Assembly: GCF_017348835.2 (NCBI RefSeq)
Contig: NZ_CP071375.1
Strand: one strand, 5' to 3'
DNA: 64,000 nucleotides
Source: Escherichia coli
Lineage (GTDB): Bacteria > Pseudomonadota > Gammaproteobacteria > Enterobacterales > Enterobacteriaceae
Below the pieces are notes generated by a model. That model saw only the letters and a list, made by a program, of their open reading frames with translations, made no database searches and was not told the DNA's origin. Positions 29,313 to 30,498 of this stretch are shown here, in pieces; the first letter of the stretch is position 1; the number at the start of each line of letters is the position of its first letter. Both the position numbers and the translations under genes were made by a program.

Positions 29313-29609
29313 CCTGTTTACCTCTTTCTCAGGGAGTTTAGTCTCCAGGATTTCCGGGGCGGTTCACATATCCATACCTGCCAGAGAGTTCATAAATATT
29401 TGACCAATATCATTTGAATCTATGGAGAGAAAAGTACCCTTGTCGGATCTTTAAAGAAAGCTCATTTACGCATCATTTTTTATTTTTGCGAGGCGTTTTC
29501 CAGATATGATGTAACAGTTGCAGTTATTATAAGTTCAAGTAAAACAGCCTTGTATTAATACCAGAATAAGGGCATCTGTTTTTTTATATTCAAGAATGAA
29601 AAATTTTTG

Positions 29610-29828
29610 TCATTCCTTATGCTCCTTACACTGATCATCAACACCAACTACCTCCCCCTTTTGCCTGCCTCCCTTTGCTTTACGTACCGGAAATTGCTGA
29701 CGTTCCAGATATTGCTCTACCGCTTCGCGTAAAATTGCAGATCGTGAAACCTTACGCCAGCCCCGAAGCTTGTTCAGCCGTTTAATTGCCTCTTCTGATA
29801 AATGAAGAAAAACCGTATTCATCGCCAT
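29610..29828 (-). CDS. yiiE: Ribbon-helix-helix (CopG-like) small protein YiiE
   Basis: Track ORF 29610..29855; start placed at MAMNTVFLHLSEEAIKRLNKLRG..., giving 72 aa; paralogous to the 72-aa yiiF at 48005..48223. Confidence 0.8.
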   Translation of the reverse strand: MAMNTVFLHLSEEAIKRLNKLRGWRKVSRSAILREAVEQYLERQQFPVRKAKGGRQKGEVVGVDDQCKEHKE

Positions 29829-30498
29829 TACCACCACCTTACATATATTACTCATTAATGTATGTGCGAAAATTACGCCGGAAAATTAATTAACGAAAGC
29901 GGATTTTTGCATGTTGTTTTGTTTTTGCGAGACGTTCTCCAGAAATAATAAGAGCGTTGCAGTTGTTTCATTTGTTACTCAAAAATGGTTTAGTTATCGC
30001 CCAGGATGAGTTATGGGTGCTACGAATATATTATATTCAGGGATATTTATTTGCATAATCTGAATGGTGTAGCCGAAAAACGTCAGCATCCTAACAGCAC
30101 CAGGATTTAAGGTGAAATTAATCTTCCATCACAGACCTGTCAGTACTGCCACCAACCGGTCTTTACTTGCTCATCGTTATAATTTTGTTGGTAACAGTTC
30201 GGGAAACAAGGAATTCCTTCCGGCCCCCCCGGTATCATCCGATAGCATTGACGTCAATCATCGGCTCGACGGTGAGTTTTTTTAATCGCATCATAGGGTG
30301 GCAACGTTCAGCACGATACGGGTCATAACAAAACTCCTGAGCAGCGGCACTATGCCGCTTTCACAGGAGTTCTGAATGCTGGTGCTTTCTGTATGGCTTC
30401 GCCATGACCCTCGCGGCTAAGTGCCTGCACACTTCTCTCTATATTTGATTTTTGCAATGCATTGGCCGAATTCTGATAATCCTAATGAGTTTTACTCT

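What the first reader, a model, noticed from the sequence alone, without database searches (positions are those of the whole stretch)
29367..29990. Duplicated promoter-like motif for the yiiE/yiiF pair; yiiF is now separated from its copy
About 50 bp upstream of yiiE (about 29926..29980) is roughly 80% identical to a segment at about 29480..29530: TTTTTGCGAG(G/A)CGTT(T/C)TCCAGA...GTTGCAGTT. Before the inversion the second copy would have been about 115 bp upstream of yiiF, matching the spacing of the first copy to yiiE. This suggests a tandem duplication of promoter-plus-gene for two paralogous ribbon-helix-helix proteins, probably autoregulatory. The IS then inserted exactly at the yiiF ATG (the duplication is the start codon itself) and the inversion moved yiiF about 18 kb away, so yiiF can now only be transcribed from IS-derived or read-through signals.
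Basis: seen in the sequence. Interest (0 to 1): 0.45.

Follow-up and report, generated by a model that had tools for sequence, protein, structure and literature searches.

The report
Duplicated Sxy-type CRP sites before yiiE/yiiF
The repeated sequence upstream of the two small antitoxin-like genes yiiE and yiiF is real, and its conserved core matches a known kind of regulatory site (a Sxy-dependent CRP site, "CRP-S"); it was copied when an old toxin-antitoxin module duplicated, and in this one strain an insertion element plus an inversion has cut yiiF off from it.

Summary
A 78-nt direct repeat (29451-29528 and 29890-29967, 76% identical, alignment z about 17 against shuffles) lies upstream of yiiE and of the former yiiF position. 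The IS and inversion story is also confirmed: two identical 1310-bp IS629/IS1203 copies carry reciprocally swapped 3-bp target duplications (ATG|IS|TTC and TTC|IS|ATG).

The interpretation needs revising. The most conserved part of the repeat is a 22-bp core, cTGGAAaacgccTCGCAaaa. It is not an operator for the ribbon-helix-helix (RHH) proteins. It matches the published asymmetric E. coli CRP-S consensus exactly (TGCGA-N6-TTCCA, either orientation). It is 16 of 18 identical to the validated site in the sxy promoter. It recurs upstream of radC, ppdD, prlF-yhaV, a relBE cassette and other toxin-antitoxin (TA) modules across Enterobacteriaceae.

yiiE and yiiF are orphaned VapB-type antitoxins. Salmonella, Citrobacter, Klebsiella-type contigs and E. 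albertii keep yiiF plus an overlapping PIN (vapC) toxin gene next to fdhE. E. coli keeps only vapC relics. The proximal promoter (extended -10; start site mapped in Klebsiella) lies downstream of the repeat.

The ATG at the IS junction is the K-12 annotated start, but the conserved start lies 24 nt upstream. This is an ordinary, largely known kind of feature. Sxy dependence here is untested.

The parts
29890..29967 (-). Repeat copy 1, upstream of yiiE (78 nt)
   Evidence: the repeat finder family D1; local alignment z about 16.8
29923..29944 (-). CRP-S-type 22-mer upstream of yiiE: TTCTGGAGAACGTCTCGCAAAA. It has one mismatch in the weak half-site; K-12 has TGGAA here.
   Evidence: PWM score 31.0; the next unrelated hit in the window scores 13.2. 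Consensus as quoted in PMC6728893.
29610..29828 (-). yiiE, a 72-aa ribbon-helix-helix (VapB-like) protein found only in Escherichia
   Evidence: ORF; Pfam RHH_1, E 1.6e-11; RefSeq annotation; homologues only in Escherichia/Shigella
29841..29865 (-). Promoter-proximal region of yiiE (ACATACATTAATGAGTAATATATGT) with the 8-bp palindrome CATTAATG. Candidate RHH operator and -10 region (inferred).
   Evidence: Read directly from the sequence. Aligns with the extended -10 block of the yiiF orthologues.
29561..29578 (-). Relic of a vapC (PIN toxin) gene just downstream of yiiE: CAGATGCCCTTATTCTGG, 17 of 18 identical to E. albertii vapC
   Evidence: score 31 versus a shuffle maximum of 30; position. 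Weak evidence.
29451..29528 (-). Repeat copy 2, the former upstream region of yiiF (78 nt)
29484..29505 (-). CRP-S-type 22-mer formerly upstream of yiiF: ATCTGGAAAACGCCTCGCAAAA, an exact match to TGGAA-N6-TCGCA
   Evidence: PWM score 35.1
29404..29412 (-). Degenerate extended -10 (TGATATTGG) of the proximal yiiF promoter. Orthologues have TGATATACT followed by GGAGG.
   Evidence: Alignment of 12 upstream regions. Klebsiella start site mapped 7 nt after TATACT (PMC3415461, supplementary file 5).
29367..29393 (-). First 8 codons of the conserved long form of yiiF (MNSLAGMD) plus the ATG copy of the target-site duplication (29367-29369), left behind next to IS copy A
   Evidence: The long form is conserved at 100% coverage in other genera.
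28057..29366 (-). IS629/IS1203-type IS3-family element, copy A (1310 bp)
   Evidence: Identical to copy B; flanks ATG|IS|TTC. RefSeq: IS3 family transposase with programmed frameshift.
46695..48004 (+). IS629/IS1203-type element, copy B (1310 bp)
   Evidence: Flanks TTC|IS|ATG
48005..48223 (+). yiiF remainder (72 aa, starting at the ATG of the target duplication). This equals the K-12 b3890 annotation.
48223..48499 (+). Relics of the vapC (PIN) toxin gene that once followed yiiF. The 5' start ATGGGAAAAAA overlaps the yiiF stop. The 3' end is ...GGTAACGCGGAATACGAGAGATGGTGTCGTCACACCCTATGAGCTGTAA. A REP element interrupts the relic at 48274-48307.
   Evidence: tblastn of E. albertii VapC against the window, E 4e-4; coordinates. 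Intact yiiF-vapC pairs in other genera.
27173..28056 (-). C-terminal part of the GPH:cation symporter gene split by the second IS (TTC target duplication)
46166..46694 (+). N-terminal part of the same symporter gene, now at the other end of the inverted segment

Best explanation
The repeat is the upstream regulatory region of a vapBC-type toxin-antitoxin module that was duplicated in tandem in the Escherichia lineage.

Its selectively maintained core is a 22-bp asymmetric CRP-S site (TGGAA-N6-TCGCA, the reverse complement of TGCGA-N6-TTCCA). At such a site cAMP-CRP binds productively only together with the competence co-activator Sxy (TfoX).

By analogy with hicAB, each gene probably has two promoters. 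One is a distal Sxy/CRP-dependent promoter served by this site; this is inferred. The other is a proximal extended -10 promoter next to the start codon. That proximal promoter is shown by start-site mapping for the Klebsiella orthologue and is probably where the RHH antitoxin autoregulates.

In E. coli both vapC toxin genes have decayed, leaving yiiE and yiiF as orphan antitoxin-like regulators.

In this strain an IS629 copy inserted at codon 9 of yiiF (3-bp duplication ATG). Recombination with a second, inverted IS629 copy in a symporter gene then inverted the 17.3-kb interval between them. yiiF lost 8 N-terminal codons, its proximal promoter and its CRP-S site, and now lies directly downstream of the IS transposase gene.
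For: Shown here:
- The repeat is real and far above chance.
- Paralogy extends over the upstream region and the coding sequence. The upstream repeat is 76% identical, the coding sequence 55%, and third codon positions 38%. The upstream region is therefore under constraint.
- Across 12 loci from Salmonella, Citrobacter, Pseudocitrobacter, a Serratia-labelled contig and Escherichia, only two upstream blocks are conserved: the core and the proximal TGATATACTGGAGG block. Klebsiella-type contigs carry both blocks as well.
- The core equals the published E. coli CRP-S consensus T4G5C6G7A8-N6-T15T16C17C18A19, described as non-palindromic and orientation-independent (PMC6728893).
- The validated sxy promoter site reads CGGAAAGAGCCTCGCAAA. 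That is 16 of 18 identical to the commonest dispersed form of the core (TGGAAAGCGCCTCGCAAA), 16 of 18 to the E. albertii/E. fergusonii yiiE core and 15 of 18 to the window's yiiF copy.
- ppdD shares the 13-mer AACGCCTCGCAAA.
- radC, a classical CRP-S regulon gene (PMC1635313), has the core in its promoter region.
- In a PWM scan of the window the two sites score 35.1 and 31.0; the next best hit scores 13.2.
- Precedent for TA operons under Sxy control: hicAB P1, chpSB, higBA, hokD and H. influenzae toxTA (PMC6957337 and PMC11951105). K-12 chpSB and prlF upstream regions carry CRP-S-type sites.
- Intact yiiF-vapC pairs lie next to fdhE in other genera, and vapC relics remain in the window.
- The Klebsiella yiiF start site is 4 nt upstream of the start codon (PMC3415461 supplement).
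- IS identity and swapped target duplications.
Against: - No experiment on yiiE or yiiF was available. Sinha et al. 2009, which lists the Sxy-induced genes, is not in the held library, so Sxy dependence at this locus rests on sequence alone.
- The site centre lies about -95 to -99.5 from the mapped or homologous proximal start site. That is out of phase with classical class I positions, so a separate distal promoter has to be assumed, and none scores well in the sigma70 scan.
- The window's yiiE copy has TGGAG instead of TGGAA in the weak half-site.
- yiiE is reported as H-NS-bound and SlyA-responsive (PMC5797941). Expression may therefore be dominated by silencing.
- The 56 nt of the repeat outside the core are about 70% identical and have no assigned function.
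Confidence: 0.75

Rival explanations
1. The repeat core is the autoregulatory operator of the RHH proteins YiiE and YiiF.
For: RHH antitoxins usually repress their own promoters (general knowledge of type II TA systems). The motif is duplicated together with the genes.
Against: - The same core, with unrelated flanks, lies upstream of genes that encode no RHH protein: sxy, radC, ppdD, prlF-yhaV, relBE and a RelE-like/NadS pair.
- The core is asymmetric, with no dyad or direct-repeat structure.
- It sits about 95 nt upstream of the proximal start site, while palindromes lie at the proximal promoter.
Confidence: 0.05
2. The core is a sigma54 (-24 GG / -12 GC) promoter.
For: The GG-N10-GC spacing is correct (TGG-N8-TCGCA), and the -12 element TCGC also occurs in glnAp2 (table).
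Against: - A PWM built from the 135 ChIP-bound sigma54 sites scores the window, K-12 and cassette-3 cores at 4.9-5.3 bits. Every bound site scores higher (minimum 6.8, median 14.4), and about 200 window 17-mers score as well. Two allelic variants (IAI39 yiiE and the E. albertii/E. fergusonii yiiE core) score 7.1 and 8.7, just above the lowest one or two bound sites.
- Neither ChIP-seq nor gSELEX reports a site at yiiE or yiiF.
- The spacer is conserved, which is unlike sigma54 promoters.
Confidence: 0.02
3. The core is a recombination or attachment site that marks the boundaries of mobile TA cassettes. The yiiE/yiiF repeats would then be cassette junctions rather than regulatory DNA.
For: - Several cores stand in one variable locus in front of successive cassettes.
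- At the infA-clpA locus, conservation between genera stops right after the core.
- The phylogroup-B2 deletion of yiiF ends exactly at the core.
- A Cedecea TA pair is flanked by two cores.
Against: - The relBE cassette carries the core about 115 nt inside its boundary, and the K-12 empty site has none.
- The R11 insertion boundary is about 26 nt away from the core.
- The B2 deletion is explained by 3-nt microhomology with the vapC relic.
- No recombinase is associated with the sites.
- Housekeeping promoters (sxy, ppdD, radC) carry the same sequence, which already has a published function.
Confidence: 0.04
4. Apart from the 22-bp site, the repeat is only residual or gene-converted homology from a recent duplication and has no function of its own.
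For: In other genera nothing but the core and the proximal block is conserved. yiiE exists only in Escherichia.
Against: The flanks of the core are about 70% identical, against 38% at third codon positions of the genes duplicated with them. Parts of the flanks are also kept in E. albertii and E. fergusonii. This fits a distal promoter there, but gene conversion is not excluded.
Confidence: 0.3

Closest known systems
CRP-S site of the E. coli sxy (tfoX) promoter (Jaskolska & Gerdes 2015; Sondberg et al. 2019, PMC6728893)
   Same: Asymmetric 22-bp site with a TGCGA half and a TTCC(A/G) half, and a GC-rich spacer. The sxy site CGGAAAGAGCCTCGCAAA differs at 2 of 18 positions from the commonest dispersed form of the core and at 3 of 18 from the window's yiiF copy. 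The conserved half is promoter-proximal in both cases. The distance to the start codon is comparable: 129 nt for sxy against 90-94 nt here.
   Different: No functional data exist for the yiiE/yiiF sites. They serve small antitoxin-like genes rather than the activator itself, and there are two copies in tandem.
hicAB of E. coli and toxTA of H. influenzae: TA operons with a CRP-S promoter P1 and an antitoxin-repressed proximal promoter P2 (Turnbull & Gerdes 2017; PMC6957337)
   Same: A type II TA module with a CRP-S-type site well upstream and a second promoter right at the first gene. Toxin genes decay frequently while the antitoxin and the CRP-S site are kept (reported for toxTA; seen here for vapC).
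   Different: The TA family differs (RHH/PIN) and the antitoxin gene comes first. The hicAB upstream sequence matches the core only weakly. P1 at yiiE/yiiF is inferred, not mapped.
VapBC (RHH antitoxin plus PIN toxin) type II toxin-antitoxin modules
   Same: In relatives, an RHH_1 protein is followed by an overlapping PIN gene of about 124 aa that hits VapC models.
   Different: In the window both PIN genes survive only as fragments, so yiiE and yiiF are orphan antitoxins and no toxin activity is possible. The VapC hits are below NCBIfam cut-offs.
Inversions between inverted IS629/IS1203 copies in E. coli and Shigella genomes
   Same: Identical IS copies in opposite orientation carry reciprocally exchanged 3-bp target duplications.
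   Different: Nothing unusual. This event is private to one sequenced lineage (PE164).

Membership tests
CRP-S (Sxy-dependent CRP) site, E. coli type | 22-bp CRP-like site with one half-site TGCGA (C at position 6) instead of TGTGA | tested here: met
   Both copies contain TCGCA, the reverse complement of TGCGA, at positions 15-19. Consensus as quoted in PMC6728893.
CRP-S (Sxy-dependent CRP) site, E. coli type | Asymmetry: the second half-site is of the weak TTCCA type, six bases away, and either orientation is allowed | tested here: met
   The yiiF copy is TGGAA-N6-TCGCA, an exact match. The yiiE copy is TGGAG-N6-TCGCA, one mismatch (K-12 has TGGAA).
CRP-S (Sxy-dependent CRP) site, E. coli type | Resemblance to experimentally validated sites | tested here: met
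   Against the sxy promoter site: 16/18 for the commonest dispersed form of the core, 15/18 for the window's yiiF copy. ppdD shares the 13-mer AACGCCTCGCAAA. The radC promoter region carries the core.
CRP-S (Sxy-dependent CRP) site, E. coli type | Transcription activation that requires both cAMP-CRP and Sxy | not testable with these tools
   Needs expression or binding experiments. The paper listing Sxy-induced genes (Sinha et al. 2009) is not held.
CRP-S (Sxy-dependent CRP) site, E. coli type | Class I-like position relative to a transcription start | tested here: inconclusive
   The centre is at about -95.5 to -99.5 from the mapped (Klebsiella) or homologous proximal start. A separate distal start is assumed but not mapped.
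VapBC type II toxin-antitoxin module | Small RHH (or AbrB/HTH) antitoxin gene | tested here: met
   YiiE hits Pfam RHH_1 at 1.6e-11. YiiF homologues carry PF01402.
VapBC type II toxin-antitoxin module | Adjacent, usually overlapping, PIN-domain toxin gene | tested here: not met
   The window holds only relics: 48223-48499 and 29561-29578. The feature is met in E. albertii, Salmonella, Citrobacter, Pseudocitrobacter and Klebsiella-type contigs. The window genes are therefore orphan antitoxins derived from such a module, not a functional module.
Tandem duplication of regulatory region plus gene | Collinear homology over the upstream region and the coding sequence of adjacent units | tested here: met
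   Global alignment of the two units; protein comparison E 6e-14. The single-copy state in other genera polarises the event.
IS3-family element (IS629/IS1203) with 3-bp target duplication | About 1.3 kb, terminal inverted repeats TGAACCGCCCCGG..., two overlapping ORFs with a programmed frameshift, 3-bp direct target repeats | tested here: met
   RefSeq annotation of the identical copy in PE164 and of relatives.
sigma54-dependent promoter | Match to the -24/-12 consensus at the level of bound sites, and sigma54 occupancy | tested here: not met
   PWM scores of 4.9-5.3 bits for the window, K-12 and cassette-3 cores are below all 135 bound sites (two allelic variants reach 7.1 and 8.7, at the bottom of the bound range). 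No ChIP-seq or gSELEX site is reported.

The most novel reading that the evidence does not exclude
A near-invariant, sxy-promoter-like version of the CRP-S site (TTTTGCGAGGCGCTTTCCAGAA, conserved even in its spacer) may be a portable cis-element. It would travel with, or be repeatedly acquired by, small toxin-antitoxin cassettes of unrelated families: vapBC/yiiEF, prlF-yhaV, relBE, RelE-like/NadS, HigB-like/HTH and SymE. It appears in these contexts across Enterobacteriaceae and on some viral contigs. If real, this would wire a large, mobile part of the TA repertoire to the competence co-activator Sxy. The spacer conservation would then point to sequence-specific contacts of the CRP-Sxy complex that the published consensus does not capture.
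Probability: 0.4. Interest if true: 0.55.

Novelty: new member of a known kind. Interest (0 to 1): 0.33.

Why it matters
It gives two poorly characterised K-12 genes, yiiE and yiiF, a concrete origin and a testable regulatory input. They are orphan VapB antitoxins of a decayed, tandemly duplicated vapBC module, and their predicted input is Sxy plus CRP, the competence regulon.

It also corrects the likely start of yiiF.

It adds sequence-level support to an emerging link between competence regulation and toxin-antitoxin modules, previously shown for hicAB, chpSB, higBA and H. influenzae toxTA.

The IS insertion and inversion are a private natural experiment. They uncouple yiiF from its native control in one strain.

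Nothing here challenges current models.

Tried and rejected
1. sigma54 promoter. The spacing fits, but a PWM from the 135 bound sites scores the window, K-12 and cassette-3 cores below every bound site, and no ChIP-seq or gSELEX peak is reported. Rejected.

2. sigma70 consensus scan of 29300-30150. Nothing on the gene strand.

3. Rfam scan of the region. Only chance-level hits.

4. Small ORF encoding GKRLAK. Variation in the core falls at apparent wobble positions. However, the frame has stop codons 2-11 codons upstream and no start codons at most sites. Rejected.

5. The repeat as a vapC 3' relic. In-frame similarity in ATCC 25922 turned out to be a deletion junction. Similarity of the repeat itself to vapC is not significant at DNA or protein level. 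A separate 18-nt relic nearer yiiE is borderline.

6. Cassette attachment site. Considered seriously and kept as a low-probability rival.

7. tRNA-linked island ends. No tRNAs found near the cores.

8. Literature search for the sequence string and for a regulator shared by yiiE, prlF and dfp. Nothing found.

9. E. coli start-site data for yiiE/yiiF. Not found in the held supplement of PMC3415461. The Thomason 2015 and Sinha 2009 papers are not held.

10. Ada box, PurR, FadR, IclR-family and CytR resemblances, recalled from memory. None fitted the invariant positions, and none was tested further.

11. The whole-collection pattern scan is too degenerate. About 280 chance hits are expected, so only the enterobacterial hits were used.

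12. My first guesses for two neighbouring features were not confirmed by Pfam, NCBIfam or PHROGs: the 632-aa neighbour as IpgD/SopB-like, and the Phytobacter gene pair as CcdAB.
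Full report
**1. What is in the sequence**

yiiE lies at 29610-29828 on the minus strand. A 78-nt direct repeat links 29890-29967, upstream of yiiE, to 29451-29528, between yiiE and an insertion sequence. The two copies are 76% identical without gaps. A local alignment of the two upstream regions scores 63. One thousand dinucleotide shuffles gave 19.7 +/- 2.6 with a maximum of 32. The 22-nt core TCTGGARAACGYCTCGCAAAAA occurs exactly twice in the 64-kb window, against 0 expected.

**2. The IS insertion and the inversion**

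Two IS629/IS1203-type elements, 28057-29366 (-) and 46695-48004 (+), are identical over 1310 bp. Read in IS orientation their flanks are ATG|IS|TTC and TTC|IS|ATG. This reciprocal exchange of 3-bp target duplications is what recombination between two inverted copies produces.

One copy had inserted in yiiF. The other had inserted in a GPH:cation symporter gene, whose two halves now lie at 27173-28056 (-) and 46166-46694 (+). The yiiF coding remainder (72 aa) is at 48005-48223 (+), directly after the right end of the IS.

No sigma70-like promoter is found in the last 400 nt of the IS facing yiiF. Only one of 5,426 complete E. coli genomes, the pig isolate PE164, shares the junction.

**3. What yiiE and yiiF are**

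YiiE is an RHH_1 protein. YiiE and YiiF are 43% identical over 58 residues, E 6e-14. Aligning the two gene units shows collinear homology from the upstream repeat to the stop codons.

Relatives polarise the history. In Salmonella, Citrobacter freundii, C. youngae, Pseudocitrobacter, a Serratia-labelled contig and Klebsiella-type metagenome contigs, a single yiiF-type gene (80-82 aa) is followed by an overlapping PIN-domain gene of 122-128 aa next to fdhE. That is a VapBC-type toxin-antitoxin module; the E. albertii copy of the PIN protein hits VapC models. yiiE homologues are found only in Escherichia and Shigella.

E. albertii carries a hybrid gene, with a yiiE 5' part and a yiiF 3' part, followed by intact vapC.

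The window and K-12 keep only relics of vapC after yiiF. The overlapping start is ATGGGAAAAAA. The 3' end reads ...GGTAACGCGGAATACGAGAGATGGTGTCGTCACACCCTATGAGCTGTAA. A REP element lies between them, and the whole relic spans 48223-48499 (tblastn E 4e-4). After yiiE there is a borderline 18-nt relic at 29561-29578.

So a vapBC module was duplicated in tandem in Escherichia, both toxin genes decayed, and two orphan antitoxin genes remain.

**4. The start of yiiF**

RefSeq PGAP calls an 80-aa product instead. Homologues in other genera align over 100% of that longer form. Their start codon is preceded by GGAGG.

In Klebsiella pneumoniae the transcription start was mapped 4 nt upstream of that start (Kim et al. 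2012, PMC3415461, supplementary file 5). The IS therefore sits at codon 9 of the ancestral gene. It removes 8 codons as well as the promoter.

**5. What the repeat is**

Across 12 upstream regions from six genera only two blocks are conserved. One is the core of the repeat. The other is a proximal block, TGATATACTGGAGGTATAT-ATG, which is an extended -10 plus a Shine-Dalgarno sequence. In E. coli yiiF this proximal block has degenerated to TGATATTGG (29404-29412).

The core is not private to this locus. With unrelated flanks it precedes a third cassette (a RelE-like gene plus NadS/HTH) in the same variable fabY-fdhE region. A pattern scan of species-representative genomes found it at many intergenic sites in Escherichia, Enterobacter, Lelliottia, Leclercia, Cedecea, Citrobacter, Phytobacter and Chimaeribacter. 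Hits outside Enterobacterales are at the level expected by chance.

The E. coli sites are:
- the garD/prlF-yhaV spacer;
- a relBE cassette between nrdG and cybC, which is absent, core included, from the K-12 empty site;
- the radC-dfp spacer.

The identification came from the literature. Sondberg et al. 2019 (PMC6728893) quote the E. coli CRP-S motif of Sinha et al. 2009 as T4G5C6G7A8-N6-T15T16C17C18A19. They describe it as non-palindromic and functional in either orientation. Its reverse complement, TGGAA-N6-TCGCA, is exactly the core.

Three positive controls from K-12 support this:
- The validated sxy promoter site reads CGGAAAGAGCCTCGCAAA. It is 16 of 18 identical to the commonest dispersed form of the core (TGGAAAGCGCCTCGCAAA) and 15 of 18 to the window's yiiF copy, spacer included.
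- ppdD shares AACGCCTCGCAAA.
- radC is a classical CRP-S regulon gene (PMC1635313).

A PWM built from 20 independent cores scores the two window sites at 35.1 and 31.0; the next best hit in the window scores 13.2.

TA operons under Sxy control have precedent: hicAB P1, chpSB, higBA, hokD and H. influenzae toxTA. K-12 chpSB and prlF upstream regions carry CRP-S-type sites.

**6. How it most likely works**

Shown here:
- the sequence identity of the core with CRP-S sites;
- its conservation above that of the coding sequence (76% against 55%, with third codon positions at 38%);
- the proximal promoter, by homology to a mapped start site.

Inferred:
- cAMP-CRP with Sxy activates a distal promoter downstream of each core;
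- the proximal promoter is the antitoxin-repressed one, as in hicAB.

The site centre lies about -95.5 to -99.5 from the proximal start. That position is out of phase for class I activation, which is why a separate distal start is proposed. A TAAT/TAAA -10-like element lies about 30 nt after the 22-mer in sxy, yiiE and yiiF alike (my reading). This is weak evidence.

Published data add that yiiE is H-NS-bound and rises 2.5-fold on SlyA overproduction (PMC5797941). A weak RpoS holoenzyme SELEX peak lies in the yiiD-yiiE spacer (PMC5493296).

**7. Rivals**

- A sigma54 promoter was tested and rejected.
- A small ORF (GKRLAK) was rejected.
- An RHH operator is very unlikely, because the core serves genes without RHH proteins and has no dyad symmetry.
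- A cassette attachment site has some circumstantial support. Several cores precede successive cassettes, and the B2 deletion of yiiF ends at the core. Against it, the relBE cassette carries the core internally, the B2 junction shows 3-nt microhomology with the vapC relic, and the sequence already has a published function.
- The non-core parts of the repeat may be partly residual or gene-converted homology.

**8. Novelty and verdict**

The kind of element is known, and so is the link between Sxy and TA operons. I could not check whether yiiE and yiiF are already listed as Sxy-induced, because Sinha et al. 2009 is not held. No open-access paper in the library connects them.

The breadth of near-identical sxy-promoter-like sites next to unrelated TA cassettes may be new, but it is only surveyed here. 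The IS insertion and inversion are ordinary and private to one lineage. Overall this is a correct observation with a partly correct interpretation, resolved into known biology. Interest is modest.

Noticed in passing
window 30499-32397 (-): A 632-aa ORF between fabY and yiiE has a CX5R-like motif (CKSAKDRT) but no Pfam or NCBIfam match. In PE164 and IAI39 the homologous gene is interrupted by a transposase and annotated as a pseudogene. It is absent from K-12-like genomes.
   Followed up: partly
window 49944-49928 (-) and 20945-20929 (-): The best sigma54 PWM hits in the window are CTGGCGCGAATTCTGCA inside fdoI, identical to the published intragenic site IS47, and TTGGCACAGTTTTCGCT upstream of glnA, which resembles glnAp2. 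A third hit, CCGGCGTAATTTTCGCA (29881-29865, -), lies between the CRP-S site and yiiE. It scores 13.0 but has no reported ChIP peak and is not conserved upstream of yiiF.
   Followed up: partly
L006 2501-3093 (E. albertii): The RHH gene is a chimera of the yiiE 5' half and the yiiF 3' half, followed by an intact overlapping vapC. This is evidence of recombination between the paralogues.
   Followed up: yes
L004 2993-3060 (E. coli ATCC 25922, phylogroup B2): yiiF is deleted. The junction joins the 3' edge of the CRP-S core (..GCCTCGC) to the 3' relic of vapC (GAAATACGAGAGATTTTGCGGG..), leaving an orphan half-repeat downstream of yiiE.
   Followed up: yes
L017, L035, L097 (Enterobacter/Lelliottia); L136, L138, L140 (IMG/VR contigs): The CRP-S-type core lies inside the 3' end of a SymE-like (type I toxin) gene, where it encodes ..AGKRLAK... 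The same arrangement occurs on three viral or prophage contigs.
   Followed up: partly
L023, L061, L096, L112, L059 (infA-clpA locus of Enterobacter-group genomes): Sequence conservation between genera stops immediately after the core. In L061 the variable part begins with a toxin-like (phrog_2523) plus HTH antitoxin-like pair. In Cedecea (L059) a toxin-like/NadS pair is flanked by two cores.
   Followed up: partly
L077 4867-5484 (Phytobacter massiliensis): The core follows a transporter gene directly. About 118 nt further on come two small overlapping ORFs (60 and 105 aa) that looked CcdA/CcdB-like by eye. Only PHROGs families of unknown function matched.
   Followed up: partly
L150 (contig labelled Klebsiella pneumoniae, GCA_900507495.1): The contig carries E. 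coli-type yiiF and upstream sequence, not the Klebsiella-type locus seen in L152-L172. Mislabelling or contamination is likely.
   Followed up: no
L156, L158 (Klebsiella-type metagenome contigs): Some copies of the yiiF-vapC module have frameshifted vapC or yiiF, so the module is decaying in that lineage too.
   Followed up: no
L174 about 1771-1792 and L175 3359-3380 (E. coli K-12): The chpSB upstream region has a palindromic CRP-S-type site, TGCGAGTCGTCTCGCA. The prlF upstream region, between the garD stop codon and its terminator hairpin, has TGGAACGTCCCTCGCA.
   Followed up: partly
NZ_CP114128.1 (E. coli PE164): The genome that matches the window holds at least 31 places matching this IS end, so further IS-mediated rearrangements are likely elsewhere in it.
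   Followed up: no
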